A stretch of DNA of 64,000 nt from NCBI GenBank assembly GCA_965248695.1, contig CBDFKD010000002.1:5248001-5312000 (forward strand), read 5' to 3'. The stretch is from Acidobacteriota bacterium (GTDB lineage Bacteria > Acidobacteriota > UBA890 > WLXD01). The notes under the pieces are model-generated. The model had not been told where the DNA came from, ran no database searches, and worked only from the letters and a program-made list of their open reading frames with translations. Shown one piece after another: positions 3,431-23,177 of this stretch; positions within the stretch are counted from its first letter, which is position 1, and every line of letters begins with the position of its first letter. The translations under genes and the position numbers were made by a program.

Positions 3431-3519
3431 CACTTCCTCCTTCGTCCCCGGTCCGCCCCGCCGCAACACACAATCAGGGCGGCAATCGACCAGTTGACGC
3501 GTCGGCGCCCAGTGGCGCC

Positions 3520-4065
3520 CTATTGTGGCTGGATCTGAATGTCCTTGAGGTCGGCGAACTCGGTGCCGAGCTCATGCTCGCCGGCCGGAAACTCGTTCTT
3601 GTTGAAGATAAACGCCACCACGTCGGCGTACTCCTCGCGGGTGAGACGGCGTGACGCCGATGGCGGCATCGTCGTACGAATCCTCTCGTATAGGTCGCCG
3701 ACCGACATGCGACCCCATTTCGACATGAAGCTCTCTCCGGCGAGCGCGGGGATCACCACACCACCCCGTAGCGTCGGTGTGTGGCAACTCTGGCATGCTC
3801 GGCGATAGGCGGTCTCGCCGCGATCGCTTTGCTCCACGGTGTAGACACCTTCGCCGACCGAGGCGGGTGCAGGTGCGGTGGCGGCCGGCGGATCTGGCTC
3901 GGCCGGCGGCTCCGGCTCAGAGCGCACGTCGCGCGACTCCATCTCAGGTGCGGCGGGCGGTGCGGGTGTCGCGGCAGGAGGCTGCGAAGACGCGCACCCC
4001 AGGGTTCCCATGAGGATTGCGGCGGTCGCCAGGTACAACGCGTTCGTACGGAATTGCTTGCGCAT
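3520..4065 (-). CDS. Mono-heme cytochrome c lipoprotein
   Basis: CQSCH heme motif, RIRTTMP axial Met, lipobox TLGC, Pro/Ala-rich linker. Alternative start at 4119. Confidence 0.85.
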   Translation of the reverse strand: MRKQFRTNALYLATAAILMGTLGCASSQPPAATPAPPAAPEMESRDVRSEPEPPAEPDPPAATAPAPASVGEGVYTVEQSDRGETAYRRACQSCHTPTLRGGVVIPALAGESFMSKWGRMSVGDLYERIRTTMPPSASRRLTREEYADVVAFIFNKNEFPAGEHELGTEFADLKDIQIQPQ

Positions 4066-10685: not shown

Positions 10686-11744
10686 ATGAGTGAGACCAAG
10701 AAGGGACTCGTCGCCCGACTCGACGCCGACGGCGTGATCTGCGCCGAGGGCTACGTTTTCGAGCTCGAGCGGCGCGGGTACCTCCAAGCCGGGGGCTTCG
10801 TGCCGGAGGTGGTGCTGGAGTTTCCGGACACCGTCAGGCAACTGCACCGCGAGCTCGTACGGGCCGGCTCCGACGTCATCGAGGCGCTGACCTATTACGC
10901 GCACCGCGAGAAGCTGTGCAGCATCGGCAAGGAAGAGCTTCTGGAGCCGATACAGCGTCGAGCGCTGGAGCTGGCTTTCGAGGTTGCTTCGGAGTTTCCC
11001 GACGCTGCGCCGCTGGTCGCCGGGAACATCTGCAACACCAACGTCTGGGTCGATGCGAGCTCCGACCGTGAGGTGCGCGCGATGTTCGACGAACAGATCG
11101 AATGGGCCCTGGAAGCGGGCGTGGACTTCATCATCGGCGAGACGTTCGCACACTGCGGCGAAGCCGAGCTGGCCGCCAGAGCCATCAAGGCGGCAGGCTT
11201 ACCGGCAGTGGTCACCTGCGCCCTGCACGAGGATCCGGAGATGCGCGATGGCGTGTCGATCGATGACACTGCGCGGCGGCTGGAGCAAGCCGGCGCAGAC
11301 GTGGTCGGATTGAACTGTTGCCGTGGCCCGACGACGATGTTGCCGGTGGGCAAGAGGATCCGGGCAGCGGTCTCGTGCCATGTTGCGTTGCTCCCGGTGC
11401 CGTACCGGACCACGGCGGGCAGCGAATCGATCCAGTCTCTCGCCGACGCTGCCTGCGACTGCATTCCGGACGATCGACCGTTTCCAGTGGCGCTGGATCC
11501 TTTTGCGTGCAACCGGTATGAGATGGCGAGGTTCGCGCGCCAAGCGCGCGAGCTCGACATCCGGTACCTCGGCGTCTGCTGCGGCGGTGCGCCGCATCAT
11601 GTTCGCGCCATGGCCGAGGCCCTCGGCCGGCGGCCGCCTGCGAGCCGGTTCTCACCCGATATGTCGAGGCACTATTCGCTCGGCGACGCCGACTCGGCCA
11701 GCGCGTCGAATCGTGGATTCGTCGACGGGCTCAAGACAAGCTGA
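10686..11744 (+). CDS. Homocysteine S-methyltransferase, betaine-homocysteine methyltransferase-like
   Basis: EGYVFELERRGYLQAG..VPEV...VRQLHRE..RAGSDV; Zn ligands in GLNCCRGP and GVCCGG. Confidence 0.88.
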   Translation: MSETKKGLVARLDADGVICAEGYVFELERRGYLQAGGFVPEVVLEFPDTVRQLHRELVRAGSDVIEALTYYAHREKLCSIGKEELLEPIQRRALELAFEVASEFPDAAPLVAGNICNTNVWVDASSDREVRAMFDEQIEWALEAGVDFIIGETFAHCGEAELAARAIKAAGLPAVVTCALHEDPEMRDGVSIDDTARRLEQAGADVVGLNCCRGPTTMLPVGKRIRAAVSCHVALLPVPYRTTAGSESIQSLADAACDCIPDDRPFPVALDPFACNRYEMARFARQARELDIRYLGVCCGGAPHHVRAMAEALGRRPPASRFSPDMSRHYSLGDADSASASNRGFVDGLKTS

Positions 11745-11754
11745 CCGGAGGCCA

Positions 11755-13029
11755 CTAGGAAGCTGGTTGTCGGTCTGATCTCTGGCACTTTATGAGATAC
11801 GCCAGGACAAAGAAGGCGATGGTGCCGAGAGCGGTGATAACTGCCAGAAAGGCGAAGAAGTTCTGGTGCCCGCCGACGCCCGGCGAATAGTCGAGGATTC
11901 GGCCCGCGATCGATGCGAAGAAGATCTCCGGCGTGAAACCAACCATCGAGATCACGCCAACCGCCGTCCCCGTACGATGGCTCGGGATGTCGGTTTCCTC
12001 CAGCAGAGCAAAGTAGATTCCGCGAAGGCCGAACGCACCGGCATAGGTCACGAACAAGTTGCCGTAGATAACGGCGATCAGGCCAGCTGACGGCGTCGAG
12101 GCCGCAAGGGCCATGTAGCTGATCGTCAGCGCCATGAATAGCCCGCCGAGGGTTCGCCTGGCTGTGAAGCGGTCGGCCAAGAATCCGGCACTGATGGCGG
12201 CGAGCACCCGGATGTAGGCTGCGCTGGCGGTGAACTGGGCCGCCCCGAGCTCGCTCATGTCGAGCACTTCGACGGCGTACAGCGAGTAGTTGTCCAGACC
12301 CTTGTAGGCGCAATACGCACACACGACGATGGTCGCCTGAGCCCAGACGACCGGCAGACGCATGATCTCCCGCAGCGCCGGCAGCGGATTGCCGCGCCCA
12401 GCTCTCGAATCGGCACCGGAGTCGGGTATGAAGATCAATGCCAGGGCACCGGCCAGCATCGTCATCGCGGTGTAGAAATAGATCACCGCCCGCAGCGCGG
12501 CGATCCGGTCCGCGGAAGTAATCTCGGCCACCTCACGTGGGAGAAAGAGGCCGAAGCACACCACCGCAAGGCTCGCCATGGCAGCGGCGGCGAGTCCGCG
12601 GCCGCCATCGAGCAGGCCGAACGCGCGTCCCTGCGCTGCGCCTCCACCCCATTCCCGCGTCGCCCGGATCAGCGCCGCCCACAAGAAGAGAATGGTCGTT
12701 GCTCCCCAGTAGCCGAACAGGATCGTGGTGCCGGTGTGGCCGGGAATGGTTGCCATGTAGAAGCCGCCGGCGCCGGTGCTGAACAGCGAGGCTGCGACCA
12801 GCTTGCGTGCGGAGAAGCGGTCCGCCAGCGGTCCGCCCAGAAAGTAGGAGACCATCGCGGTGATGCCATAGACGGCGAAAGCATCACCAAGCTGGGTGTT
12901 TGAGAACGCGAACACCTCGAGCGTGGTGGCGCGGAAGTACCTGGCGACATGAAACGGAAGCGAGAAGGCTGCCTCTCCGGCCAGGATCAGAACACCGAGG
13001 ACCAGGTAGCGATTGCTTGAGGCAGGCAA
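11755..13029 (-). CDS. MFS transporter
   Basis: About 12 hydrophobic segments; GGPLADRFSARK and AGFLADRFTARR MFS motif A in both halves. TTG start estimated. Confidence 0.85.
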   Translation of the reverse strand: MPASSNRYLVLGVLILAGEAAFSLPFHVARYFRATTLEVFAFSNTQLGDAFAVYGITAMVSYFLGGPLADRFSARKLVAASLFSTGAGGFYMATIPGHTGTTILFGYWGATTILFLWAALIRATREWGGGAAQGRAFGLLDGGRGLAAAAMASLAVVCFGLFLPREVAEITSADRIAALRAVIYFYTAMTMLAGALALIFIPDSGADSRAGRGNPLPALREIMRLPVVWAQATIVVCAYCAYKGLDNYSLYAVEVLDMSELGAAQFTASAAYIRVLAAISAGFLADRFTARRTLGGLFMALTISYMALAASTPSAGLIAVIYGNLFVTYAGAFGLRGIYFALLEETDIPSHRTGTAVGVISMVGFTPEIFFASIAGRILDYSPGVGGHQNFFAFLAVITALGTIAFFVLAYLIKCQRSDRQPAS

Positions 13030-13233
13030 CTCTTGTATCGCCCTTTTCGCTGGGAGCGCGCCGCCTCGACCGATCTGGCGCGGGCGGCTGTCGTCCGCAC
13101 CGCGCCCGATCGAAACACGGGCGCTCGTTGACTTGTCGTCTGTGACGATGGTACCTGTAGGTCGGATACTACGCACGAGCGCGCACCTCGGTACGTTCCG
13201 GGTCGTGCGGAGACGCTCCACGGGAGAATCGAT

Positions 13234-14073
13234 GTGAGGACTCGGTGGGCCCTGGCCGTGTTGGCGGTCACCGCTGCGAGCACGGGGGGGACGGCGATCT
13301 TCGCCGGCCAACTTCCAATGGAACCGGTTCCGAGATCGGGCGGTGGGGTCACGCCGGTCTTCGAGGGTTGGTACGTGAATGCCGATGGCACCCGGACGCT
13401 CTCGTTCGGCTACTTCAACCGGAATTCGGAGGAGATCGTCGAAATCCCGGTCGGTGCGAACAATGGGTTCGAGACGGGCGAGGTCGATCGAGGTCAGCCG
13501 ACCTATTTCCTGCCGCGCCGCAACTGGGGCGTATTTGGCGTCAAGGTGCCGGCGGACTTCGGTTCGCAGCGGCTTATCTGGACGATCGTCATTCGCGGCA
13601 AGACGTACTCGATTCCTGGACACCTCGAGCGCGGCTACTACATCGACGCGCTCGAAGGCGAAGCGGGGGCAGAGAACACTCCGCCGGTCATCAAGTTCAA
13701 CCCGGATGGACCGGAAGCCCGGGGCCCCGGCGGGATATTCGGCCCGCCGCTGACCATCAGCGCCGACGCTCCGATCAACCTCACGATCTGGGCTTCCGAC
13801 GATGCCCGCACCGAGTCGTGGCGCCGCCAGCCGGCAGACTCGCTGCACATCACCTGGTACAAGCACCAGGGTCCGGGCGACGTGTCGTTCAGCAACGCGG
13901 CCCCTGAAGTGGATCGAGCGGCCGGCGGCAAGGCCACCACGACGGCTAGATTCAGTGATCCCGGCCGGTACACACTGCGCGTGCTTGCCAACGACGTCTC
14001 GGGTACCTACGCCGCCGGCCACGCGCAATGCTGCTGGACGAACTCGTTTGTTCGCGTCACGGTGACCCCGTGA
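13234..14073 (+). CDS. Secreted hypothetical protein with C-terminal Ig/PKD-like domain
   Basis: Signal peptide; PVFEGWY.NADGT..LSFGYFNRN, GQPTYFLPRR; ARFSDPGRYTLRVLAND; C-terminal GHAQCCWTN. Confidence 0.75.
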   Translation: MRTRWALAVLAVTAASTGGTAIFAGQLPMEPVPRSGGGVTPVFEGWYVNADGTRTLSFGYFNRNSEEIVEIPVGANNGFETGEVDRGQPTYFLPRRNWGVFGVKVPADFGSQRLIWTIVIRGKTYSIPGHLERGYYIDALEGEAGAENTPPVIKFNPDGPEARGPGGIFGPPLTISADAPINLTIWASDDARTESWRRQPADSLHITWYKHQGPGDVSFSNAAPEVDRAAGGKATTTARFSDPGRYTLRVLANDVSGTYAAGHAQCCWTNSFVRVTVTP

Positions 14074-14101
14074 GATTCGCATGCCGGCGCGCCCGCGGCC
14101 T

Positions 14102-14107
14102 TATAAT
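14102..14107 (+). promoter_or_regulatory. Possible -10 element (TATAAT) for the heme-Cu monooxygenase gene
   Basis: Perfect TATAAT in GC-rich DNA, 33 nt before ATG 14141 which has an AGGAG RBS; no clear -35. Confidence 0.35.
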
Positions 14108-14140
14108 CCGCACCACGGCGAACCCAGCAAGGAGCCTCTC

Positions 14141-15514
14141 ATGACACGCAGCCGGTCTTACTCTCGCGTCGGTCAGAGCCTCACTATCTGCACCTTCGCG
14201 TTGGCCGCGGTGCTCGGCCTCGTTGGCGACGCCGTGTCGAGCAACGGTCCGATCGCAGACGACGATCCCGTCACCTTCACCAAGGACGTGGCGCCCATCC
14301 TTCAGGTGAAGTGCCAGGAATGCCACAGGCCCGACTCCATCGCACCGATGTCGCTGCTGACCTACGAGGACGTGCGATCGTTCTTGCGGCCAATCCGCAA
14401 GGAGGTGCTGGCACGTCGCATGCCGCCGTGGCACCTCGACAAGACGGTGGGGATCCAGCACTACAAGAACGACCGCTCGTTGACCGACGCGCAGCTCGCG
14501 ACCATCGTTCGCTGGATCGATGACGGTGCTCCGATGGGCGATCTCGCCGACATGCCGCCCCCGCGGGAGTTCCCCGATCCCACCGAGTGGCAGTTGGCCA
14601 AGGAGTTCGGCGAGCCCGAGCTGATCGTGCGCTCCGAGCCCTACACGGTGACGGAGCTCGGGCAGGATAAATGGTGGCGTCCCACGGTGGAAACAGGCCT
14701 GACCGAGCCCCGGTGGGTACGCGCCATCGAGGTCAAGCCTTCCTACCCGGGTGGTCGTAAGGCAGTGCACCACGTCATGTCCTACCTGATTCAGGATGAG
14801 GACGATATCGTCGGGCTTGCTCGCAGCGTGCCCGCTGAGGCGCGCCGCGGCGGCACGTTCATGGAGTGGGCCATCGGCAAGGTCGGCGAGGTATTCCCGC
14901 CGACCGCGGGCAAGCTCATGCTCCCTGGGTCGAAGATCCGCTGGGAGGTGCATTACTACGCCTACGGTGCGCAGGTCACCGACGACGTCGTCGAGATGGG
15001 TGTGTACTTCTACCCGCGCGGCTACGTTCCGAAGCATCGCACCATGCTGGGGATGATCGGCGAAGGTTCGCGCGAGTCACGCCTGGAGATCCCGCCCAAT
15101 CAGGTGAGCGTCATCCAGCATCAGGAGGTGCTCGCGGCGCCGGCGCGGCTCGAGAACTTCCAGCCTCACATGCACATGCGCGGCAAGGCGCAATCGCTGG
15201 AGGCGATCTATCCGGACGGCCGACGCGAAGTTCTGAGCCATGCGGACAACTTCCAGTGGAACTGGCACGTCAACTACATCTATGAAGAGGATGTCGCGCC
15301 GCTACTCCCGGCTGGTACGACGCTGCTGGTGACCAGCTGGTTCGACAACACCGAAGACAACCCGAGCAATCCGGATCCTGACCAGTGGGTCGGGTACGGC
15401 GACCGGACCGTCGACGAGATGGCGCACGTCTGGATCGACTTCACCTACATGGAGCAGGAAGACTTCGACGCCGAGGTCGCCAAGCGTCAAGCGGCCGCCG
15501 ACGGCGAAGAGTAA
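14141..15514 (+). CDS. Secreted c-type heme / copper type II (PHM/DBH-like) monooxygenase fusion
   Basis: Signal peptide; CQECH; AVHH, EVHY, PHMH and DEM match the CuH (His,His,His) and CuM (His,His,Met) ligands of PHM/DBH. Confidence 0.8.
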   Translation: MTRSRSYSRVGQSLTICTFALAAVLGLVGDAVSSNGPIADDDPVTFTKDVAPILQVKCQECHRPDSIAPMSLLTYEDVRSFLRPIRKEVLARRMPPWHLDKTVGIQHYKNDRSLTDAQLATIVRWIDDGAPMGDLADMPPPREFPDPTEWQLAKEFGEPELIVRSEPYTVTELGQDKWWRPTVETGLTEPRWVRAIEVKPSYPGGRKAVHHVMSYLIQDEDDIVGLARSVPAEARRGGTFMEWAIGKVGEVFPPTAGKLMLPGSKIRWEVHYYAYGAQVTDDVVEMGVYFYPRGYVPKHRTMLGMIGEGSRESRLEIPPNQVSVIQHQEVLAAPARLENFQPHMHMRGKAQSLEAIYPDGRREVLSHADNFQWNWHVNYIYEEDVAPLLPAGTTLLVTSWFDNTEDNPSNPDPDQWVGYGDRTVDEMAHVWIDFTYMEQEDFDAEVAKRQAAADGEE

Positions 15515-15546
15515 GTGGACGCGGAGCCCGGCTGCGGGCCGGTGAG

Positions 15547-16560
15547 CTACCGACGGACGTACTTCACGAGAGTGCGGCCCGAGACTTCGGCGCCGTACAC
15601 ATTGCCGTCCGTGTCCGCCGCGGCGCCCTCGGCTCCGCTGGTGATGAAGTTCTCCGGGTGTGGCTCCGTGCCAGGGATGAAAGCGGTCACCGATCCATCG
15701 CGAGCGCTGCCGATGCGGATGCCCCGGGCATAGCCGGGGTTGTCGGCGTTGGACTCCGAGTCGGCGACGTAGATCACGTCGTTGGCGTCGATGAAGACGT
15801 CACTCGGTCGCCCGAAGTGGGTCCATGTGGCGATGTGGTTGCCGTCCTGGTCGAAGATCTGAAGCCGGTTGTTGCCGCGATCGGCGACGAAAATACGGCC
15901 CTGTGAATCGATGTCGACGGCGTGCGGGTCCTGGAATTCGCCGGCTCCGCTCCCGGTCCTGCCCCAGGATCCGACAAGCTCACCGTCGCTGTTGAATCGC
16001 ACCACACGGTTGTTGCCGAGCGGGCCGTGCCCATCGAGAACGAAGACGTCGCCGGACGCTGTGACCGCGAGGTCCGTCGGACCGGTGAAGGCGTCCGGTC
16101 GGTCACCGTCAACGCGGCCCTCGAGGCCCAACGTCAGTAGCAGCTCGCCGTCCGGGCTGAACTTGAGCACCTGATTGCCCTGGCCGCTCCGAACCTGTGC
16201 GTCGGCCACCCACACGTTGCCGTCGGCGTCGACCTCGATACCGTGCGGCCAGACGAACATTCCGGCGCCGAAGCTGTTGAGCAGCTTGCCCGACGAGTCG
16301 AAGTGCAGGATCGGGTCCTCATCGCGATCGAGGCAGCTGTTCTGACCGCATCGATCGGCCACCCACAGGGTGCCGTCCGGGCCAGGATGCACGGCGCTGA
16401 TGGCTCCATAGGTGCGCCCAGCGGGCAACTCACCCCAGGCGTTATGGGCAATTCGGTAAGGGTTGTCCTGTGCCGCCCAAGCGGTTATTGCCGCCAGCGC
16501 GAGGACGCTGGCGCAGGTCGCCGCCGATGCCGCCTTGCCGACTCGCTGCCATCGCACCAT
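15547..16560 (-). CDS. Secreted NHL-repeat beta-propeller, peptidyl-alpha-hydroxyglycine alpha-amidating lyase (PAL)-like
   Basis: WPHGIEVDADGNVWVAD, PTDLAV..GDVFVLDGH..NNRVVRF, PHAVDIDSQGRIFVADRGNNRLQIF; AGGAGG before ATG 16560. Confidence 0.85.
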   Translation of the reverse strand: MVRWQRVGKAASAATCASVLALAAITAWAAQDNPYRIAHNAWGELPAGRTYGAISAVHPGPDGTLWVADRCGQNSCLDRDEDPILHFDSSGKLLNSFGAGMFVWPHGIEVDADGNVWVADAQVRSGQGNQVLKFSPDGELLLTLGLEGRVDGDRPDAFTGPTDLAVTASGDVFVLDGHGPLGNNRVVRFNSDGELVGSWGRTGSGAGEFQDPHAVDIDSQGRIFVADRGNNRLQIFDQDGNHIATWTHFGRPSDVFIDANDVIYVADSESNADNPGYARGIRIGSARDGSVTAFIPGTEPHPENFITSGAEGAAADTDGNVYGAEVSGRTLVKYVRR

Positions 16561-16612: not shown

Positions 16613-16802
16613 CTAGTGGCCTGTAACAGATGAACGTTGCCTATCGTGGTGGCGAAATGGGCTCGGATGCCAGGCGCTGCGACGAGACGATGTCGGCCCA
16701 TCTTCGAGGAGGAGCAGCGGGGCAGACGGGTCCATTTCGCCACTGTTCTCTTGATTGGGCCTACGGACAGATGGGCAACGTTCATCTGTTACAGGCCACT
16801 AG
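16613..16802. mobile_element. MITE-like non-autonomous element (190 bp) with 33-bp terminal inverted repeats
   Basis: 16613-16645 CTAGTGGCCTGTAACAGATGAACGTTGCCTATC matches the reverse complement of 16770-16802 at 32/33; inner IR GTGGCGAAATGG (16649-16660)/CCATTTCGCCAC (16732-16743); CTAG at both ends; no coding capacity. Confidence 0.8.
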
Positions 16803-17248
16803 CGCTGAATCGCCTCGAACATGATGCGTTCCAGAACCGAGGTCCGTGACGCGAGCTCCGCGTCGCCGACCGGGAAGTCGTTGCTCGAGAGTACGTACGC
16901 GAGGATATCGGCCTTCTCCCTGCGGCTAACGCTGGCGGGATCTTCGACCGGCATCGATGTGCGAATGCGCTCGAAGAGGGTGCCGACCGTGACCCCGTCC
17001 CAGTTCCAGATGAACTCTCCGCCGGACAGGATGGGCGCCTCGTCGCCGCCGCTCAGGTCGGTTCCATGACAGCTGGCACACGCGGTCTCGTAAGTCTGTT
17101 GCCCCCGAAGGGCCTGCTCTTCGGTATAGATCCCGTCCCATACGGTGGGGCTCTGTGTGGCGGCGGCGGGAGGGGCCCAGAGTGCGCCCAGGGCTGCGCC
17201 GGAGATAGCACAGACCGGCAGGAGCAATGTCGTCAGGCGAAGCTTCAT
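16799..17248 (-). CDS. Mono-heme cytochrome c
   Basis: Signal peptide MKLRLTTLLL; TVWDGIYTEEQALRG, CASCH, RIRTSMP. The TAG stop lies in the right CTAG of the MITE. Confidence 0.88.
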   Translation of the reverse strand: MKLRLTTLLLPVCAISGAALGALWAPPAAATQSPTVWDGIYTEEQALRGQQTYETACASCHGTDLSGGDEAPILSGGEFIWNWDGVTVGTLFERIRTSMPVEDPASVSRREKADILAYVLSSNDFPVGDAELASRTSVLERIMFEAIQR

Positions 17249-17306: not shown

Positions 17307-19178
17307 TCAGCAGGATACGCAGTTGTTGCTGTTCTCGGCGCCGACGCCCTCGAGCAGCGCGATGGTGTCGGGGAACGGCTGGATGCGCTGCACCGGCCCG
17401 TTCGCCATGTCGACCGTCGTCTGACCGCGGCGACTGATGAGCGTTGGATCGGCGCCGTGATCGAGCAGGTAGCCGATGAGGCCGTTGTCGCCTCGCGCCG
17501 CAGCGTGGTGCAGCGGTACGTAGCCGTCATGGTCGCGAGTGTTGACATCCGCGCCGAGCTCTTCCACCAGGTACCGGACCGTGCTCAACCACCCATCGGG
17601 GACGTGTCGGTGCGAGTTACCGGCGTACCCTTGTCCGTAGCCGACGCCCGATGCCGCGTGGATCGGGAACACGGCGGGGCCGTTGAGCGGCACCGGCGGC
17701 AGGCCGGACGGATCCAGTTCGCCGTCTTCGCCTCCGCTGTCGGCATAGCGCCGGCGCTTCGGGACCACCTGGGTGGGCACGTTGGGGTCGGCGCCGTGCG
17801 CCACGAGCAGGCGCAAGGCCTCGACATCGGTGGCGTAGGCAGCGCGCCAGAACGGGGTTGCCCCCTTGGTATCCACGCCCAACAGGTGGAAGTTGTACGA
17901 CATATGCCACAGATGCTTGGTGAGCCGAACGTTGGTGTCGGCACCGGCATCGAGAACCGCCTGCAGCAGATCCATGTAGCCCGTACGCTGCTGGGTGTAG
18001 GCGTACTGCTGGGGATAGCGTGATTTGGGCGCCCACTGCACCTTGAGGGTGGCGTACAGCGGCGTCAGGCCAGCGGCGTTCGCCAGCGTCGGGTCAGAGC
18101 CGCGATCGAGAAAGTACATTGCCAGGTCGAAGTGGCCGTTCATGACGGCGATCAGCAACGGGCTGGTGCCATCGCCGCTGTTGACCAGGTTGACGTCGGC
18201 GCCGGACTCGATCAGCGCCTGAACGGTGTCGGCATGGCCCTCGCGCGCGGCGTGCAGCAGTGCGGTCATACCGCCATGGGTGCCAACGAGATCTTCATAG
18301 TTCGGTGGCTCGCCCTCCGCTTCCTCGGTCTCTTCCTCGGCTTCGGCGAAATTGCTTTCCGCCTCTCCCTCGCGCGCATCCGTCGGCGTAACGCCCGCCG
18401 GCCCGGTCGGCGCGGCCTCGGCGGCTGGGTCTGCCGGTGGCTCAGCGTTCGTTGCCTCGAGCGGTTCTCTGGAAGGAGTCGGCTTGACTTCAACCACGGC
18501 CGCCTCGGAGTCCATGGACTGGAGGGCGGCGATGCGGCGGTCTCGTTGTTCCTTCTCGGCCTCCAACCGCTCCTCGAACGCCGCGACGTCGACGACCATG
18601 GCCGTCACGGATGAGTCCGCACCCCGTTGCAGCAACACGTCAACGGCCTCGACGCGATTCGCCGCGGCGGCGAACATCAGCGACGTTTGTCCCCAGGTCG
18701 ATTCGCGCCCATCGACGTGCGCCCCCTGGTCCAGCAGCGCGTTGATGACGCTCACGTTGCCGGCTGCCGCTGCGAAGTGCAGGGCGGTGGCACCGCCGGC
18801 GGTGGTGGCTGCGTTGACGTCGCTACCGGCACGCAGCAGCGTTTCGACCACCTCAGCGCCGCCTGACTTGCTGGCCAGGTGCAGCGCCGTGTAGTCACCG
18901 ATGCGGGTGACTGCAGCGGGGTTGGCTCCGGCGTAGATCAGCATCTCCACCAGCACCCGATCATCGTTCCGAGCCGCCCAGTGCAGGGCGGTCATGCCGT
19001 CGCCTTGGGCGGCGTTCACGTCCCCACCTTCCCGCAGCAGGGCACGCACGGTGTCGGCGTCGCCGCCCATCGCCGCGTCCGCCACCGGGGCCGCGCTGGG
19101 TGCAGCAGCCAGCAGCGTCGGTAGGCAGGCCGCAACGGCGAGCATGGCGCACGTCGGGGTCAGGCGTCGTCTGAGCAT
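17307..19178 (-). CDS. Secreted ankyrin-repeat protein
   Basis: Many GMTALH/TALHLA/TPLY/GADVN repeats; signal peptide; acidic Pro-rich linker; C-terminal CVSC. GGAGG before ATG 19178 (alternative start 19214). Confidence 0.9.
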   Translation of the reverse strand: MLRRRLTPTCAMLAVAACLPTLLAAAPSAAPVADAAMGGDADTVRALLREGGDVNAAQGDGMTALHWAARNDDRVLVEMLIYAGANPAAVTRIGDYTALHLASKSGGAEVVETLLRAGSDVNAATTAGGATALHFAAAAGNVSVINALLDQGAHVDGRESTWGQTSLMFAAAANRVEAVDVLLQRGADSSVTAMVVDVAAFEERLEAEKEQRDRRIAALQSMDSEAAVVEVKPTPSREPLEATNAEPPADPAAEAAPTGPAGVTPTDAREGEAESNFAEAEEETEEAEGEPPNYEDLVGTHGGMTALLHAAREGHADTVQALIESGADVNLVNSGDGTSPLLIAVMNGHFDLAMYFLDRGSDPTLANAAGLTPLYATLKVQWAPKSRYPQQYAYTQQRTGYMDLLQAVLDAGADTNVRLTKHLWHMSYNFHLLGVDTKGATPFWRAAYATDVEALRLLVAHGADPNVPTQVVPKRRRYADSGGEDGELDPSGLPPVPLNGPAVFPIHAASGVGYGQGYAGNSHRHVPDGWLSTVRYLVEELGADVNTRDHDGYVPLHHAAARGDNGLIGYLLDHGADPTLISRRGQTTVDMANGPVQRIQPFPDTIALLEGVGAENSNNCVSC

Positions 19179-19210
19179 CGTGCCCCTCCGATGGGTACTC
19201 GCTGCACGAC

Positions 19211-20602
19211 TCATACCGGCGTCGACAGGGAGAACTCGCCCGTGCTGTCGCCGAAGGTGGCCATGTCAGTGTGACCGAGCTTGTGCATCAGGCTCAGCAT
19301 CGCGTTGGCCATCGGGGTGCCATCGTCGGCACGGAGGTGGGCGCCACCCTCGAGCTCACCGTTGGCGCCTCCCACCACGAACAACGGACAGCGCTTGTGG
19401 TTGTGAACGTTGGGATCGCCCATGGGTGATCCGTAGATGACCATGCTCTGGTCGAGCAGGCTGCTGTCCCCGTCCATGGTGTCGCGCAGCTTGTCGAGGA
19501 AGTACGGCATCAGGCTGACGTGGTAGTCGTTGATGAGCGCGAACTCATCGATGTTCGATTCCTTACCTCCATGATGGGAGGCCGGATGGAACCCCTTGCT
19601 GGTGCCACTCTTTGGATATACCCGCGACGACGCATCTCGCCCGAGCTTCAGCGAGAAAACGCGCGTCACGTCGGCAGCAAAGCCGAGAACCTGAAGGTCG
19701 AACATGAGCTTCACATGCTCATCGAACGAGTCCGGTACCCCGGCGGGCGCCTCCGGCAGCTCTCGCACCTCGCCGCTAATGTTGCGCTCCTCGACGCGTC
19801 GTATTCGGCGTTCGATCTCACGAACGTTTTCGAGATACCGATCGATTCGCCGCCGGTCCTCGGGACCGAAGCCGGTCTTCAAGCGCGCCACCTCGCCGGT
19901 GATCCAGTCGAGGATGCTGCGATCCGCCCGCCGCCGCGCGGCGCGCTCCTCCGGAGTCCCACCGACACCGAAGAGTTGATCGAAGACCACGCGCGGGTCC
20001 CGAATCATCGGTAGCGGCTGGGTCGGGGAGGCCCAGCTGATGGTGTCGGTGTAGACGCAGGCGTAGCCGTAGGCGCATCCGCCGGCGGCGTCGACGTTCT
20101 CTATGCATAGCTGCATCGACGGGATCGGCGTGCTCTGTCCGAAGCGCTGAGCGTATAGCTGGTCCATGGAGATGCCGACCTGTACATCCGATCCCTGTGT
20201 CTGCTTCGGGTGCGACTGCGTCAGGAACACGGCGCTCGAACGGAAGTGATCGCCGCCGATCTCCTTCGGGATGAGCGCTTCGGCCCCCTGACAATCGGTG
20301 TTGCTGATGATGGTCAGCTGGTCGCGAAAGGGCTCGAGGGCGCGGAGAGCGCTCGGGCTGAGATCGAAATCGCGGCCGACCTGGGCCGGGGCCCAGTAGT
20401 TCTTGGTGGCGCCGTAGTCATTACAGCCGGCGGCGCCATGCACCATTTCGATGCAGACCAGCCGGGTGGGATCGGTGCTCTCGGATCCGCTCCGTGCCCA
20501 GGCGGCCGTCGGTACCATGGCGTCGAGCAAGGGCAGCGCTACCGTTGCTCCCACGCCACGCAGAATCGTGCGCCGCGGCAGCGGCTTGTTCAGGATGATC
20601 AT
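19211..20602 (-). CDS. DUF1552 family Tat-exported protein
   Basis: LPRRTILRGVGATVALPLLDAM, GGDHFRS, ISMDQ, GGCAYGYACVYTDTISW, FHPASHH, NVHNH. Confidence 0.88.
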   Translation of the reverse strand: MIILNKPLPRRTILRGVGATVALPLLDAMVPTAAWARSGSESTDPTRLVCIEMVHGAAGCNDYGATKNYWAPAQVGRDFDLSPSALRALEPFRDQLTIISNTDCQGAEALIPKEIGGDHFRSSAVFLTQSHPKQTQGSDVQVGISMDQLYAQRFGQSTPIPSMQLCIENVDAAGGCAYGYACVYTDTISWASPTQPLPMIRDPRVVFDQLFGVGGTPEERAARRRADRSILDWITGEVARLKTGFGPEDRRRIDRYLENVREIERRIRRVEERNISGEVRELPEAPAGVPDSFDEHVKLMFDLQVLGFAADVTRVFSLKLGRDASSRVYPKSGTSKGFHPASHHGGKESNIDEFALINDYHVSLMPYFLDKLRDTMDGDSSLLDQSMVIYGSPMGDPNVHNHKRCPLFVVGGANGELEGGAHLRADDGTPMANAMLSLMHKLGHTDMATFGDSTGEFSLSTPV

Positions 20603-20675
20603 CGGTCCTCCAAAATTGAATGTCCCGCTTCGGGCCCCCGTCTCCGCGGGTGGATCGGACTCGGCATTGGTGCCA

Positions 20676-23177
20676 TCAAGGTCGGTGCTCCGCGGCCTCG
20701 TCATCGGCCACCTGGACTCGCATCGCTCGGTCGTTATTGTGGAACGCCGGACTGCTGGCGACTCCGAGAACGAACGACGACAACCGGTAATCGTTGCCCT
20801 TCGCATCGGCAACGACGGTGCGGATGACGGGCATGTCGGTGTACTCGATACGTCGGCCAAGTGCGTAGGCCATCAGGTTCTTGGCGAAGTTCGTCATGAT
20901 CGCATCAGTGTACGTGAGCAGCGCCTGCCGCAGATCGATCGGGCCGTTGAGAACCGTACCGTCGTACAGCTCGCCCGAGACCTGGACCGCGGCGCCGTTG
21001 TCGTTGATGCGCCAGGCGCCCATGACGTCGAAGTTCTCCAGCGCCAGGCCCAACGGATCGATGACTCGATGGCACGACATGCAGCTCGGGTCGGCGCGGT
21101 GCTGCTCGAGGCGCTGGCGCACTGTCGTCAACTCGGTATCGCCGACGAAATCGCTGTCTTCCAGATCGGGCACATCCGGCGGCGGTGGCGGCGGCGGGGT
21201 ACCCAGCAGGACTTCCATCAGCCACTTGCCGCGCAGAACGGGAGACGTCCGGTTGGAGTGTGAAGTCAGCGTCAGGAAGCTGCCGTGCCCGAGCACGCCG
21301 CGGCGGTTGCGGTCCGGCTGGGCCACCTTGCGGAAATGGGTGCCGGCCACATTCGGGATTCCGTAGTGCCTGGCGAGGCGCTCGTTGAGGAACGTGTAGT
21401 CGGCGGTCAATAGCTCGAGCGCGCTCCGATCTTCCTGCACGAGATGGTTGAAGAGCATCTCGGTTTCCTGGCGCATCGCATCGGCGAGCTGACGCGGAAA
21501 GTCCGGATACATGACCGCATCAGGCTGTACGAGGTACAGATCCTGCAGCCGCAGCCACTGGGCAGCGAAGCGCGTGCCAAGCGAGGCGGCACGCGGATCG
21601 GCGAGCATTCGTGCCACCTGCACCTGGAGGACGCGCGGGTCCTGGAGCTGATTACGGTGCGCCAGCTCGACGAGCTCTTCGTCCGGGGCGCTGGCCCAGA
21701 GGAAGAACGACAACCGCGATGCCAGCGTCAGATCGCTGACGCGGTCTGCCGAGGCAACCTCGGGTCTGGCGGTTTCTTCGAAACGGAAGATGAAGTGCGG
21801 GCTCGCCAGCACCGCCTGCAAAGCGTCCCGGATACCGACTTCGAATCCGCCCGCTGTCGCACCACGCTGATAGAACGCCATCAAGGCGTCGACGTCGTCG
21901 TCGGTTACCGGTCGACGATACGCCTCAGCCGCCAGCCGGGAGACGATCTCACGGGCGCACGGCAGCTCCTCGTCAGGGGCCGTCGGTCGGCAGCTAAAGA
22001 CGTGGTCACGGCTCGGCGTCGCCGAAACCCCGGTGGAGCCGTACGGGCCGCCGATGATCAGATCTTGCAAGTGGGGAAGCGACGTCACCCCATACGAGCT
22101 GCCGATCTTCTTGTCCGCCAGACTCCATTCGTGCAACGACAGGGAGTCCTCGACGGGCCCCTCGAAGCGCTGCAAGAAAGCGGCCGACACGCGTTGAGGC
22201 CCAGCTCTGACGAAGATCGGCGAGCTGACCTCGAGAACGCCGTTGTCGGCATTCATCCACCGATCGACATCCACCAGCGCGGCGCGCTCACCGTTGATGG
22301 AGATCTCGATCTGCTCGTCGTGCAGCGTCCGCATGCCGAACAGCTCGGCGATCGGCGAGTCGTAGAAGTCCATCGTGAAGGTGTAGCTCGCGTCGGCGGG
22401 GAAATGGTGGATGACCGACAGGCCGCCGCGCGTGCCATAGGGAGCACCCTCGACATGCTCGCGCTGCGAGGCAAAGCGTGGGACCGAGTACGTCGTCGCG
22501 CTGGCCGTGGCGTTGACGTCGCCGAGGGCCAGACGGCTTACTTCGCCAGCCGCTGCCAGGAAGCCCTGCATGACCGTTACCGACAGGCCCTGCACATCGG
22601 CAACGTTGTCGAATCCCTCGCTGATCGTGTCCGGCGGCAGGTACGCGTCGGCGTCGATCTCGAGCTCGAGCAGATCACGAACCGAGCGTTCGTACTCGGC
22701 GCGGTTGAGCCGCTGAAAGGTGCGGCCGCCGCGATAGCCGGCAGCCGCAGCAGCCGCGTCTACGCGCCCCGCGAGTGACGTCACCAGGGCGCTCACGGTG
22801 GCCTGATCAGGTCGCCGCAGCGGCGGGGGCGGCATCATGCCGGCCTGCAGCTTACGGATCATCTTCTCGGCGACCTCAGCACTTTCGTGCGCCCGCGCCA
22901 CGTCGAATGACTCGAGCGACAGGCCGGCGGTGCGCGTCTCGTCGTTGTGGCAGCGCAGGCAATACTGGCCAACGACGCGGTTTTGCGCCTGGTAGTTGGC
23001 GGCGTTCTCGCTGATGAGCTCGCCGGCGACGCCCGGCAGCGCAACACGGCTCGCCTCGCTTTGCGCCCGCCCGGTGCTCGCGGTAAAGCCGATAGCGAGC
23101 ACGGCGGCGATCAGGCTAGTCACGGCGACGGGCGCCGTGGCACGCCTGCGGTCCGCACCAGATGTCACGATACGCAT
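20676..23177 (-). CDS. DUF1587/1595/1592/1588/1585 multidomain c-type cytochrome (PSD-type)
   Basis: CLRCH; RLNRAEYERSVRDLL; LASPHFIFR; LASRLSFFLWASAPD; RTSPVLRGKW; CMSCH..IDPLGLALENFD; YALGR. Confidence 0.9.
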   Translation of the reverse strand: MRIVTSGADRRRATAPVAVTSLIAAVLAIGFTASTGRAQSEASRVALPGVAGELISENAANYQAQNRVVGQYCLRCHNDETRTAGLSLESFDVARAHESAEVAEKMIRKLQAGMMPPPPLRRPDQATVSALVTSLAGRVDAAAAAAGYRGGRTFQRLNRAEYERSVRDLLELEIDADAYLPPDTISEGFDNVADVQGLSVTVMQGFLAAAGEVSRLALGDVNATASATTYSVPRFASQREHVEGAPYGTRGGLSVIHHFPADASYTFTMDFYDSPIAELFGMRTLHDEQIEISINGERAALVDVDRWMNADNGVLEVSSPIFVRAGPQRVSAAFLQRFEGPVEDSLSLHEWSLADKKIGSSYGVTSLPHLQDLIIGGPYGSTGVSATPSRDHVFSCRPTAPDEELPCAREIVSRLAAEAYRRPVTDDDVDALMAFYQRGATAGGFEVGIRDALQAVLASPHFIFRFEETARPEVASADRVSDLTLASRLSFFLWASAPDEELVELAHRNQLQDPRVLQVQVARMLADPRAASLGTRFAAQWLRLQDLYLVQPDAVMYPDFPRQLADAMRQETEMLFNHLVQEDRSALELLTADYTFLNERLARHYGIPNVAGTHFRKVAQPDRNRRGVLGHGSFLTLTSHSNRTSPVLRGKWLMEVLLGTPPPPPPPDVPDLEDSDFVGDTELTTVRQRLEQHRADPSCMSCHRVIDPLGLALENFDVMGAWRINDNGAAVQVSGELYDGTVLNGPIDLRQALLTYTDAIMTNFAKNLMAYALGRRIEYTDMPVIRTVVADAKGNDYRLSSFVLGVASSPAFHNNDRAMRVQVADDEAAEHRP

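What the first reader, a model, noticed from the sequence alone, without database searches (positions are those of the whole stretch)
14141..16560. Candidate bacterial PAM-like alpha-amidation system: adjacent PHM-like and PAL-like secreted enzymes
Seen: the PHM-like gene ends 32 nt from a convergent, signal-peptide-bearing NHL protein with WPHG, PTD..DGH, PHA..ADR and AEG blades. Known: animal PAM is PHM plus PAL; PAL uses three Zn-binding His, a Tyr (DGY) and an Arg (ADR). Here two His and the Arg are kept, Tyr becomes His, and the last His appears to be Glu. Inference: the two halves of PAM chemistry (C-alpha hydroxylation, then carbinolamide cleavage) encoded side by side, for peptide/acyl-glycine amidation or oxidative N-dealkylation. 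Caveat: both families can be multi-copy in such genomes, so adjacency could be chance.
Basis: partly seen in the sequence, partly recalled or inferred. Interest (0 to 1): 0.8.

Follow-up and report, generated by a model that had tools for sequence, protein, structure and literature searches.

The report
Heme-copper monooxygenase beside PAL-like propeller
Two neighbouring bacterial genes do resemble the two halves of the animal peptide-amidating enzyme, but the copper enzyme's constant partner is a different small protein, and it sits next to the lyase-like gene only occasionally.

Summary
Gene 14141-15514 (+) encodes a secreted protein with a c-type haem domain (CxxCH, Met94) fused to a PHM/DBH-fold core. 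All six copper ligands are invariant in 40 of 40 relatives. It ends 32 nt from a convergent NHL propeller gene (16560-15547). At PAL's catalytic positions that propeller has His, His and Arg kept, Tyr replaced by His, and the third His replaced by Glu.

The dedicated PAM-like pairing is only partly supported. The constant partner of the PHM-like gene is the upstream 279-aa two-Ig-domain protein: it is adjacent in 75 of 80 loci, and the complex model scores 0.73 against 0.00 for controls. An NHL gene is directly adjacent in 3 of 80 loci, two of them from the window's genus. The closest relative has lost exactly this 2.5-kb cassette and kept ankyrin, cytochrome c and NHL. The residue aligned with PHM's peptidylglycine-binding Arg is never Arg.

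The link is not nil. One other lineage has an operon of PAL-like NHL with the full catalytic set, PHM-like, partner, PQQ dehydrogenase and cytochrome c. Another has PHM-like, partner and NHL. Both families are linked more strongly to PQQ dehydrogenase plus cytochrome c.

The PHM-like family is very large and has no Pfam model. I found no paper on it.

The parts
13234..14073 (+). 'up': a secreted 279-aa protein of two Ig-like beta-sandwich domains with an invariant C-terminal QCCW motif. It is the constant partner of the PHM-like gene.
   Evidence: ORF. No Pfam or NCBIfam hit. Adjacent on the same strand in 75 of 80 loci. Alignment A3 of 29 sequences. Model pLDDT 85, with only generic tandem-Ig hits. 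Complex model with the PHM-like protein: ipSAE 0.73 against 0.00 for the best control.
14141..15514 (+). PHM/DBH-like dicopper monooxygenase, 457 aa, with an N-terminal signal peptide and a mono-haem c-type cytochrome domain.
14312..14326 (+). Haem c attachment motif C58-x-x-C61-H62. The likely axial Met94 lies in the MPPW motif at 14420-14422.
   Evidence: Invariant in 40 of 40 sequences. Weak matches to PccH, Haem_bd and cytochrome c entry 4rlr.
14768..14953 (+). CuH-type ligands H210 and H211 (14768-14773) and H271 (14951-14953).
   Evidence: Invariant in 40 of 40. Aligned to the HH and H ligand motifs of DBH and PHM.
15167..15421 (+). CuM-type ligands H343-x-H345 (15167-15175) and M427 (15419-15421). 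Q341 occupies the position of PHM Arg240.
   Evidence: Invariant in 40 of 40. Aligned to the HxH and Met motifs of PHM and DBH. None of the 40 sequences has Arg two residues before the first His.
15515..15546 (.). 32-nt spacer between the convergent stop codons.
   Evidence: The consensus scan found no terminator-like site here.
15547..16560 (-). Secreted six-bladed NHL propeller, 337 aa, of the bacterial PAL-like family. Variant site: H106 (16243-16245), H178 (16027-16029), H213 (15922-15924), R228 (15877-15879), E311 (15628-15630).
   Evidence: Pfam NHL at 1.8e-25. PAL 3fvz at 2.6e-24. PAL alignment. Conservation in 127 sequences: H106, H213 and R228 in 127 of 127; H178 in 125 of 127; E311 in 124 of 127.
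16799..17248 (-). Class I c-type cytochrome of about 149 aa (CASCH motif), upstream of the NHL gene on the same strand.
   Evidence: Pfam Cytochrome_CBB3 at 3.3e-9. It is 42-51% identical to the cytochromes that follow PQQ dehydrogenase genes in PHM-like operons.
17307..19214 (-). Secreted ankyrin-repeat protein, 635 aa, upstream of cytochrome c and NHL. Homologues recur beside PHM-like genes.
   Evidence: Pfam Ank at 7e-61. A homologue lies within 10 kb in 15 of 80 PHM-like loci. An ankyrin fusion to a PHM-like protein is seen in P0231.
13015..15543 (.). 2.5-kb stretch holding exactly the up and PHM-like genes. It is absent from the closest related genome (G003).
   Evidence: blastn of L082: its bases 1-2517 match window 18259-15544, and its bases 2533-4011 match window 13014-11550, at 91-92% identity.

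Best explanation
The region holds two separate periplasmic units that happen to abut in this genus.

Unit 1 (13234-15514, + strand) is a two-gene cassette. It encodes a haem-c/dicopper monooxygenase built on the PHM/DBH fold, plus an obligate two-Ig-domain subunit ('up') that docks on the CuM domain next to the Met427 loop. Inferred mechanism: the fused c-type haem domain takes electrons from soluble c-type cytochromes, which in many loci are reduced by an adjacent PQQ-type dehydrogenase. It passes them to CuH in place of ascorbate. CuM then activates O2 and hydroxylates a C-H bond of an unknown substrate. That substrate is not anchored as a peptidyl-glycine carboxylate is in PHM.

Unit 2 (19214-15547, - strand) is ankyrin, cytochrome c and NHL. 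The NHL protein belongs to a bacterial PAL-related propeller family whose metal site has changed from three His plus Tyr to His/His/Glu plus His. It is most likely a metal-dependent hydrolase or lyase, and it is not the dedicated second step of Unit 1.

Shown: fold, ligand sets, gene linkage and the indel. Inferred: electron route, catalysis, substrate and the independence of the two units.
For: The PHM-like core is real.
- The six Cu ligands, CxxCH and Met94 are invariant in 40 of 40 relatives.
- A family profile hits DBH at 3.6e-9 and PHM at 1.2e-7 with the ligand motifs aligned. The fold search agrees.
- The family is very large: 14,519 representative clusters at E<=1e-3.

'up' is the real partner.
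- It is adjacent on the same strand in 75 of 80 loci, 63 upstream and 12 downstream. Two of the five misses are cut by a contig end.
- The 4 closest of the genome's 10 PHM-like genes (window copy included) each have an 'up' gene beside them.
- The complex model scores ipSAE 0.73 (runs 0.73, 0.66, 0.78) against 0.00 for the best of 3 controls. In the tool's calibration that mark was reached by 58 of 80 solved complexes and 2 of 110 mismatched pairs. Contact agreement between runs is at least 83% and partner pLDDT at least 83.

The NHL gene is not obligatory.
- It is directly adjacent in 3 of 80 loci: L001 and L004 from the window's genus, and L075.
- None of the 9 other paralogues in this genome has one beside it.
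- In 41 related genomes with 69 PHM-like and 58 NHL matches, only the orthologous locus in G000, G002 and G004 is adjacent.
- G003, with a 94% identical NHL, keeps ankyrin, cytochrome c and NHL but lacks window 13015-15543.
- PHM-like genes lie within 10 kb of only 4 of 80 metagenome NHL loci.
- Each family occurs without the other: 7 genomes have NHL only and 4 have PHM-like only, out of 41.

The substrate anchor is missing. None of 40 sequences has Arg at the position aligned with PHM R240.

The stronger links are elsewhere. PQQ dehydrogenase lies near PHM-like genes in 22 of 80 loci against 4.3 expected, and near NHL genes in 13 of 80 against 2.0 expected.
Against: NHL-PHM linkage does recur.
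- A PAL-like NHL with the full PAL residue set (His, Tyr, His, Arg, His) lies directly upstream of PHM-like and 'up' in L075, L148 and L167. PQQ dehydrogenase and cytochrome c follow in L148, and PQQ dehydrogenase in L167. These NHL proteins are 69-77% identical to each other, so they count as one lineage.
- L163 is a tight operon of PHM-like, 'up' and an NHL of the His/Glu type.
- L016 has an NHL gene about 2.8 kb from 'up', beside PQQ dehydrogenase and cytochrome c.

Co-location is somewhat above expectation.
- An NHL hit with the window's query lies within 10 kb of 7 of 80 PHM-like loci, against 2.8 expected: Poisson P 0.024, or 0.15 once the two same-genus loci are dropped. It is 8 of 80 if L070's PAL-like NHL with the full catalytic set is added.
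- In the reverse direction the count is 4 of 80, against about 1 expected by my arithmetic (P about 0.02).

Other points.
- A review states that the PAL step proceeds spontaneously above neutral pH (PMC6529398, passages read). A facultative lyase is therefore compatible with real coupling.
- The complex, the electron route and the catalysis are models. No metal content, activity or expression data exist.
- The loci from one search are related to each other, so the Poisson figures overstate significance.
Confidence: 0.45

Rival explanations
1. One reading: the PHM-like enzyme hydroxylates a C-alpha next to an amide or amine nitrogen, and the PAL-like NHL cleaves the resulting carbinolamide. Together they carry out amidation or oxidative N-dealkylation in the periplasm. 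The NHL step would be needed only in some lineages or conditions.
For: - Both proteins are homologous to the PAM halves.
- Both appear to be secreted, judged by eye.
- They are adjacent in three genomes of the genus.
- Independent operons exist: PAL-like NHL with the full catalytic set, then PHM-like, then 'up', in L075, L148 and L167; and PHM-like, 'up', NHL in L163.
- Co-location within 10 kb is modestly above expectation (my arithmetic).
- Tyr to His and His to Glu change together, which suggests a retained and retuned metal site.
- Amidohydrolase and peptidase genes recur nearby: creatininase family in 14 of 80 loci, and S15, M24 and M20 peptidases beside paralogues in this genome.
Against: - There is no NHL hit within 10 kb in 72 of 80 PHM-like loci. 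An NHL gene is directly adjacent in only 3 of 80.
- 76 of 80 NHL loci have no PHM-like gene within 10 kb.
- The window's pair is convergent, so the genes are transcribed separately.
- The cassette is cleanly absent from the nearest relative while the NHL operon persists.
- None of 22 longer relatives is fused to an NHL domain.
- The PHM carboxylate-binding Arg is absent.
- The window's NHL lacks the PAL Tyr, the third Zn-binding His and the Asp next to it.
Confidence: 0.25
2. An indirect link through a shared electron-transfer hub. A PQQ-type dehydrogenase plus cytochrome c is the core. The PHM-like/'up' enzyme consumes the cytochrome's electrons. The NHL propeller is a lactonase-like hydrolase that processes the dehydrogenase product. 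PHM-like and NHL genes meet only because both associate with that hub.
For: - PQQ dehydrogenase (PF01011) lies near PHM-like genes in 22 of 80 loci and near NHL genes in 13 of 80, against 4.3 and 2.0 expected.
- Tight operons exist: cytochrome c, PQQ dehydrogenase, NHL in L116; cytochrome c, PQQ dehydrogenase, 'up', PHM-like in this genome (L114).
- The window's cytochrome c is 42-51% identical to the cytochromes that end those operons.
- The NHL protein passes the Pfam SGL (SMP-30/gluconolactonase) cut-off, 31 bits against 26.3, though only over residues 105-141.
- JGI names many homologues 'sugar lactone lactonase YvrE'.
- The best NCBIfam resemblance of the PQQ enzymes is the glucose/quinate/shikimate family, below the curated cut-off.
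Against: - The nearest PQQ dehydrogenase-like locus is about 84 kb from the window's locus.
- The conserved residues sit at PAL positions, not at known lactonase metal positions. That second point is recalled and was not tested.
- The SGL match covers only one blade.
- pqqC was not found in this genome, but the control genomes also gave no signal, so that search is inconclusive.
Confidence: 0.2
3. The NHL protein is itself a redox enzyme. PAL's Zn(His)3 site has become a 2-His-1-carboxylate (Fe/Mn-type) site that exchanges electrons with c-type cytochromes.
For: - His/His/Glu is almost invariant.
- In 14 of 30 NHL loci from related genomes, a c-type cytochrome is adjacent or fused. Two different cytochrome classes are involved: a class I cytochrome upstream in the window's genus, and two fused cytochrome c' domains (PF01322) in another genus.
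Against: - Those 14 loci come from only three genera.
- None of 80 metagenome NHL loci has a same-strand CxxCH ORF within 1.5 kb.
- No model of the NHL protein was made, so the geometry of the site is untested.
Confidence: 0.1

Closest known systems
Peptidylglycine alpha-amidating monooxygenase (PAM: PHM plus PAL domains; PDB 1phm, 1opm, 3fvz, 5wm0)
   Same: - The PHM-like protein shares the two-beta-sandwich fold and the full set of His-His...His and His-x-His...Met copper ligands.
- The NHL protein shares the six-bladed propeller and has His at the positions of PAL His585 and His690 and Arg at the position of Arg706.
   Different: - Bacterial and periplasmic; the two are separate genes on opposite strands, not fused.
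- The monooxygenase carries a c-type haem domain and needs a 279-aa partner.
- PHM Arg240 is replaced by Gln.
- In the NHL protein, PAL Tyr654 is His, His786 is Glu and Asp787 is Gly.
- The gene pairing is not conserved.
- The PAL and PHM residue numbers and their roles are recalled from the structural literature. The motif positions in chains 3fvz and 5wm0 fit them with an offset of 491.
Dopamine beta-hydroxylase / tyramine beta-monooxygenase (PDB 4zel)
   Same: It is the best match by both sequence profile and fold. Like this family, it has Gln rather than Arg two residues before the HxH motif.
   Different: DBH has a DOMON domain and uses ascorbate; both points are recalled. The bacterial protein instead has a CxxCH cytochrome domain and a partner subunit.
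Copper monooxygenases fed by a dehydrogenase through a cytochrome: fungal CDH or PQQ-pyranose dehydrogenase with LPMO, and methanol dehydrogenase/cytochrome cL with pMMO (recalled analogies)
   Same: The same logic is suggested by the gene neighbourhood: PQQ dehydrogenase, cytochrome c and a copper monooxygenase encoded together.
   Different: The folds and copper sites are unrelated to LPMO and pMMO. No electron transfer has been shown here.
SMP-30/gluconolactonase-type six-bladed propellers paired with PQQ glucose dehydrogenase (recalled pairing)
   Same: The NHL protein passes the Pfam SGL cut-off on one blade and sits in operons with PQQ dehydrogenases.
   Different: Its conserved His/His/Glu, His and Arg lie at PAL positions. 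NCBI files the family under PAL.

Membership tests
PHM/DBH-type non-coupled dicopper monooxygenases (Pfam PF01082 and PF03712) | Two beta-sandwich domain fold | tested here: met
   Model pLDDT 88. Foldseek top hits are DBH 4zel at 2e-12 and about 30 PHM entries, probability 1.00.
PHM/DBH-type non-coupled dicopper monooxygenases (Pfam PF01082 and PF03712) | CuH ligands His-His...His and CuM ligands His-x-His...Met | tested here: met
   H210, H211, H271, H343, H345 and M427 are invariant in 40 of 40 sequences. They align to the ligand motifs of DBH and PHM.
PHM/DBH-type non-coupled dicopper monooxygenases (Pfam PF01082 and PF03712) | Reaches the Pfam gathering score | tested here: not met
   No hit for the window protein even at E<=10. 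Only sub-threshold hits appear in distant relatives: PF03712 in P0125, P0141, P0196 and P0243, and PF01082 in P0196.
PHM in the strict sense (peptidylglycine hydroxylase) | Arg240 anchoring the substrate's C-terminal carboxylate (role recalled) | tested here: not met
   The aligned position is Q341. None of the 40 family members has Arg there.
PHM in the strict sense (peptidylglycine hydroxylase) | Ascorbate-dependent hydroxylation of glycine-extended peptides | not testable with these tools
   Needs an enzyme assay.
c-type cytochrome | CxxCH haem attachment motif with a distal Met | tested here: met
   C58, C61, H62 and M94 are invariant in 40 of 40 sequences. Relatives reach Cytochrome_CBB3 or Haem_bd.
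[quoted passage not shown] | Six-bladed NHL beta-propeller related to PAL | tested here: met
   Pfam NHL at 1.8e-25. 3fvz at 2.6e-24 in one stretch covering residues 80-243. No structure model of this protein was made.
[quoted passage not shown] | Three His ligands of the catalytic Zn (His585, His690, His786; numbers recalled) | tested here: not met
   H106 and H213 are kept. The third position is E311, in 124 of 127 family members.
[quoted passage not shown] | Catalytic Tyr654 in the DGY motif | tested here: not met
   H178, in 125 of 127 family members. Relatives that have Tyr here also have His at position 311.
[quoted passage not shown] | Arg706 | tested here: inconclusive
   R228 is invariant in 127 of 127. 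It is mapped to PAL only by offset, and Asp-Arg at this place is also seen in the TRIM71 NHL blades aligned.
[quoted passage not shown] | Lyase activity on alpha-hydroxyglycine amides | not testable with these tools
   Needs an enzyme assay.
PAM-like two-step system | Conserved linkage or fusion of the two halves | tested here: not met
   Directly adjacent in 3 of 80 PHM-like loci. PHM-like within 10 kb of 4 of 80 NHL loci. No fusion in 22 longer relatives. An indel removes the linkage in G003. Exceptions: operons in L075, L148, L167 and L163.
SMP-30/gluconolactonase (Pfam PF08450) | Reaches the Pfam gathering score over the domain | tested here: inconclusive
   31 bits against a cut-off of 26.3, but the match covers only residues 105-141.

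The most novel reading that the evidence does not exclude
Bacteria have a periplasmic forerunner of PAM chemistry that supplies its own electrons. A haem-c-fused PHM-like copper monooxygenase, with its Ig-like subunit, hydroxylates a carbon next to nitrogen. A PAL-like NHL propeller splits the carbinolamide. A PQQ dehydrogenase oxidises the released aldehyde and returns the two electrons through cytochrome c to the monooxygenase's haem domain. The complete five-gene operon is seen in L148. The window carries a rearranged version that lacks the dehydrogenase.
Probability: 0.15. Interest if true: 0.85.

Novelty: new variant of a known kind. Interest (0 to 1): 0.62.

Why it matters
Non-coupled dicopper monooxygenases (PHM, DBH, TBM) are treated as eukaryotic, ascorbate-driven enzymes; that view is recalled, not checked here.

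This window shows a very large bacterial family built on the same copper core. It has 14,519 representative clusters at E<=1e-3, no Pfam model, and source names no more specific than 'c-type cytochrome' or 'hypothetical protein'. Its members carry a haem c domain, have an obligate partner subunit, and are often encoded next to a PQQ dehydrogenase and a cytochrome c.

If the family is active, it would be a new route for periplasmic C-H oxidation in the soil and marine phyla Acidobacteriota and Gemmatimonadota. It would also offer an ascorbate-free model for electron delivery to CuH.

The sporadic operons with PAL-like propellers bear on where PAM came from. My seven searches of the held library found no paper describing any of this. 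Subscription journals are not covered by that library.

Tried and rejected
- Pfam and NCBIfam on the PHM-like and 'up' proteins gave nothing usable.
- A single-sequence PDB search with the PHM-like protein found only a haem-motif match at E 0.73. A family profile was needed.
- The fold search with the 'up' model gave only generic tandem-Ig hits. The protein atlas gave 'hypothetical' and 'putative PKD domain' clusters.
- I first took c-type cytochrome linkage of the NHL family to be general, because 14 of 30 loci from related genomes showed it. I withdrew that when none of 80 metagenome loci showed it.
- I first scored NHL adjacency with the window's NHL protein only. That query detects the distant PAL-like NHLs with the full PAL residue set only weakly: L075's at 26% identity, and L070's not at all. 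I repeated the search with two such proteins as queries. That added L070 at 4.3 kb and showed L005's hit to be of this type, but added no further directly adjacent case among the 80 PHM-like loci.
- I tried to see a residue-level alignment to PAL for blades 4 and 5. PAL ranked too low to be printed, so His690 and Arg706 are mapped by offset only.
- The consensus scan found no terminator in the 32-nt spacer.
- The pqqC search in this genome found nothing, but the control genomes gave no signal either, so it is inconclusive.
- Literature searches found no paper on bacterial PHM-like or PAL-like proteins. From review PMC6529398 I read only the matched passages. The PAL structure paper could not be fetched, so PAL and PHM residue numbers and roles are recalled.
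- No supplementary files were requested.

Full report
**What is in the sequence**

One search lists a + strand ORF ending at 15514 and a - strand ORF ending at 15547, leaving 32 nt between the convergent stop codons. For the + strand gene these are 457-aa proteins at 82-87% identity. For the - strand gene it is a 337-aa protein at 94% identity and 100% coverage. The NHL translation contains WPHG (H106), PTD...DGH (H178), PHA...ADR (H213, R228) and AEG (E311), as described. The window is G000:C2:5248001-5312000 in a 5.89-Mb genome. Its nearest public relatives are Acidobacteriota MAGs.

**The PHM-like protein**

Pfam and NCBIfam give nothing for it. It nevertheless belongs to a very large family. 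All but one of the 8,000 candidates scored matched (7,999), most of them unnamed and the rest named 'hypothetical protein' or some kind of c-type cytochrome. There are 14,519 representative clusters at E<=1e-3, and 1,674 at 1e-30.

An alignment of 40 members at 32-84% identity to the window protein has these invariant residues: C58, C61, H62, M94, H210, H211, H271, H343, H345 and M427. That is a c-type haem motif with a distal Met, followed by exactly the CuH (His-His...His) and CuM (His-x-His...Met) pattern of PHM and DBH.

A profile of this alignment hits DBH at 3.6e-9 and PHM at 1.2e-7, with those motifs aligned. The AlphaFold model (pLDDT 88.3, pTM 0.84) finds DBH and about 30 PHM entries at Foldseek E 2e-12 to 1e-8. 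Distant members give sub-threshold PF01082 and PF03712 hits. Many are fused to AhpC/TSA redoxins, one to ankyrin repeats, and others to EF-hand or GAF domains.

The residue aligned with PHM Arg240, two positions before the first His of HxH, is Q341. It is never Arg in the 40 sequences. DBH also has Gln there. The role of Arg240 as the anchor for the substrate carboxylate is recalled, not tested here.

**Its real partner**

In this genome there are 10 PHM-like loci. The four closest, including the window's, each sit next to a paralogue of the upstream 279-aa gene. None of the other nine is next to an NHL gene.

Among 80 loci from one-per-species genomes (52-85% identity), 'up' is adjacent on the same strand in 75. 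It is upstream in 63 and downstream in 12. L029 and L069 are cut at the contig end. L038, L043 and L045 show none.

'up' has no Pfam family. Its model is two Ig-like sandwiches (pLDDT 85). Its alignment has an invariant QCCW motif near the C-terminus.

The complex prediction supports binding, with a median ipSAE of 0.73 against 0.00 for the best of three controls. The tool's calibration for that mark is 58 of 80 solved complexes and 2 of 110 mismatched pairs. Agreement between runs is at least 83% and partner pLDDT at least 83. The interface lies on PHM-like residues 173-179, 312-319 and 411-424, the last of which is the conserved loop just before M427. This is a model, not a measurement.

**The NHL protein**

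It is a clear NHL propeller (Pfam 1.8e-25). It matches PAL 3fvz at 2.6e-24 in one stretch, although TRIM/Thin NHL domains score higher.

HMMER alignments to 3fvz place H106 on the His of PAL's LPHG motif (chain residue 94). They show PAL's DGY (chain 163) and M-P-H-D (chains 293-296) in the equivalent blades. With the offset of 491 between chains 3fvz and 5wm0, these are His585, Tyr654, Met784, His786 and Asp787. Those are the numbers I recall for the PAL active site.

In 127 family members, H106, H213 and R228 are invariant. H178 occurs in 125 and E311 in 124. The two sequences with Tyr at position 178 are paralogues from this genome, and they also have His at position 311. That is the full PAL set. 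The same covariation holds for L075, L148, L167 and L070. The window's NHL is therefore a PAL-related protein with a coordinated change at its site. NCBI already names close homologues as PAL family proteins, while JGI calls them lactonase or YncE.

**Is the pairing conserved?**

Forward test, from the PHM-like side:
- An NHL hit lies within 10 kb in 7 of 80 PHM-like loci: L001, L004, L005, L016, L028, L067 and L075.
- It is directly adjacent in L001 and L004, which are from the window's genus and convergent, and in L075.
- At this genome's NHL density, 2.8 loci were expected. Poisson P is 0.024, or 0.15 when the two same-genus loci are dropped.
- Repeating the search with two PAL-like NHL proteins that carry the full catalytic set added only L070, at 4.3 kb.

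Related genomes:
- 41 genomes hold 69 PHM-like and 58 NHL matches at E<=1e-40.
- By my comparison of the two tables, only the orthologous locus in G000, G002 and G004 is adjacent. One further pair, in G004, lies 6 kb apart.
- 15 genomes have both families, 7 have NHL only, 4 have PHM-like only and 15 have neither.

The most telling case is G003. Its NHL is 94% identical to the window's. It aligns at 91-92% nucleotide identity to window 18259-15544 (ankyrin, cytochrome c, NHL) and then jumps to 13014-11550 (the MFS transporter). Exactly the 'up' plus PHM-like cassette is missing, and G003's best PHM-like match is only 75% identical and lies on another contig.

Reverse test, from the NHL side:
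- Of 80 metagenome loci of the His/Glu-type NHL, 4 have PHM-like plus 'up' within 10 kb: L148, L163, L164 and L167.
- About 1 was expected, by my arithmetic from 10 copies per 5.89 Mb and 577 kb of flanks (P about 0.02).

Fusions: none of the 10 plus 12 longer relatives carries an NHL domain. The tool warns that the search among longer proteins is weak evidence.

L163 is a tight operon of PHM-like, 'up' and NHL. In L075, L148 and L167, a PAL-like NHL with the full set (His, Tyr, His, Arg, His) lies immediately upstream of PHM-like and 'up'. PQQ dehydrogenase and cytochrome c follow in L148, and PQQ dehydrogenase in L167. These three NHL proteins are 69-77% identical to each other, so they count as one lineage.

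The review PMC6529398 (passages read) states that the PAL step proceeds spontaneously above neutral pH. A lyase that is only sometimes present is therefore not a contradiction.

**The stronger associations**

Clustering the neighbours of the 80 PHM-like loci gives PQQ dehydrogenase (PF01011) in 20 loci, or 22 by tblastn. Cytochrome c appears in 14 by clustering and 19 by tblastn. Ankyrin appears in 13 by clustering and 15 by tblastn (the clustering totals of 15 and 14 include the window itself). A creatininase-family protein appears in 14 and an MBL-fold protein in 11.

In this genome the paralogous loci read as follows:
- cytochrome c, PQQ dehydrogenase, 'up', PHM-like
- PHM-like, 'up', PQQ dehydrogenase
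- 'up', PHM-like, another propeller, M20 peptidase

PQQ dehydrogenase is also near 13 of 80 NHL loci, including the overlapping operon of cytochrome c, PQQ dehydrogenase and NHL in L116. With 20 PQQ dehydrogenase-like loci in this genome, the expectations are 4.3 and 2.0, giving Poisson P of 1e-9 and 2e-7. These figures overstate significance because the loci are related to each other.

The window's cytochrome c is 42-51% identical to the cytochromes that close those operons. The cytochrome link of the NHL family itself is local. It holds for 14 of 30 loci, from three genera, and includes fusions to two cytochrome c' domains. It holds for none of 80 metagenome loci.

**Reading**

The best-supported picture is a self-contained haem/copper monooxygenase cassette ('up' plus PHM-like). 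It belongs to a loose periplasmic neighbourhood centred on PQQ dehydrogenase and cytochrome c. PAL-like NHL propellers are occasional members of the same neighbourhood.

In the window the two meet tail to tail, as separate transcription units, and the nearest relative has the one without the other. I put about 0.45 on no direct coupling here.

Noticed in passing
G000:C2:2649817-2650989 (L111:1318-2490, -) and G000:C2:2342342-2343487 (L112:1334-2488, -): Two paralogues in this genome carry the full PAL residue set (DGY Tyr plus three His). One follows a HEAT-repeat/cytochrome c gene and the other follows an ankyrin-repeat gene. Neither is near a PHM-like gene.
   Followed up: partly
L094:1402-3345 (+), L098:655-2562 (-), L096 (coded genomes G017, G016, G015): NHL homologues 57-58% identical to the window's are fused to two C-terminal cytochrome c' domains (PF01322). 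In another genus a small cytochrome c'-like gene follows the NHL gene (L090, L091).
   Followed up: partly
L148 (NHL with the full PAL set 8079-6775, PHM-like 6612-5395, 'up' 5253-4495, PQQ dehydrogenase 4435-2372, cytochrome c 2292-1945, all -); L167:9565-15012; L075:3460-6960: An operon of a PAL-like NHL with the full catalytic set, PHM-like and 'up', with PQQ dehydrogenase in L148 and L167 and cytochrome c also in L148. This is a better candidate for PAM-like chemistry than the window's own pair. A HupE/UreJ-type membrane protein sits beside it in L075 and L167, with homologues also in L070 and L005.
   Followed up: partly
L075:1510-2052 (+): A cytochrome P460 gene lies about 1.4 kb upstream of the operon of PAL-like NHL, PHM-like and 'up'. 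This is a possible hint at nitrogen-oxide or hydroxylamine chemistry, but it rests on a single locus.
   Followed up: no
L123, L124, L125, L134, L135, L137, L148, L151, L161, L167, L173: His/Glu-type NHL genes and NHL genes with the full PAL residue set lie within a few kb of each other in 11 of 80 metagenome loci. A twelfth locus (L150) has only a weak hit. L161 has four hits to the full-set query (44-56% identical).
   Followed up: no
representative proteins P0125, P0197, P0231, P0243, P0249, P0394-P0400: Many distant members of the PHM-like family are fused to an N-terminal AhpC/TSA peroxiredoxin. Some are also fused to esterase/lipase, LRR, PDZ, GAF, EF-hand or ankyrin domains.
   Followed up: partly
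window 10686-11744 (+) and 11758-13059 (-): A homocysteine/betaine S-methyltransferase-like gene and an MFS transporter lie upstream. The transporter is transcribed divergently from 'up'. An MTHFR-like gene lies beside the paralogous operon in L114.
   Followed up: no
window 19214-23177 (-): A DUF1552 (HXXSHH) gene and an overlapping ORF of 833 aa follow the ankyrin gene. Homologues recur in 13-16 of the 80 PHM-like loci.
   Followed up: no
whole genome G000: There are 20 PQQ dehydrogenase-like loci, five of them within 12 kb of PHM-like paralogues. A pqqC family search found nothing, but the control genomes also gave no signal, so it remains open whether the organism makes PQQ.
   Followed up: partly
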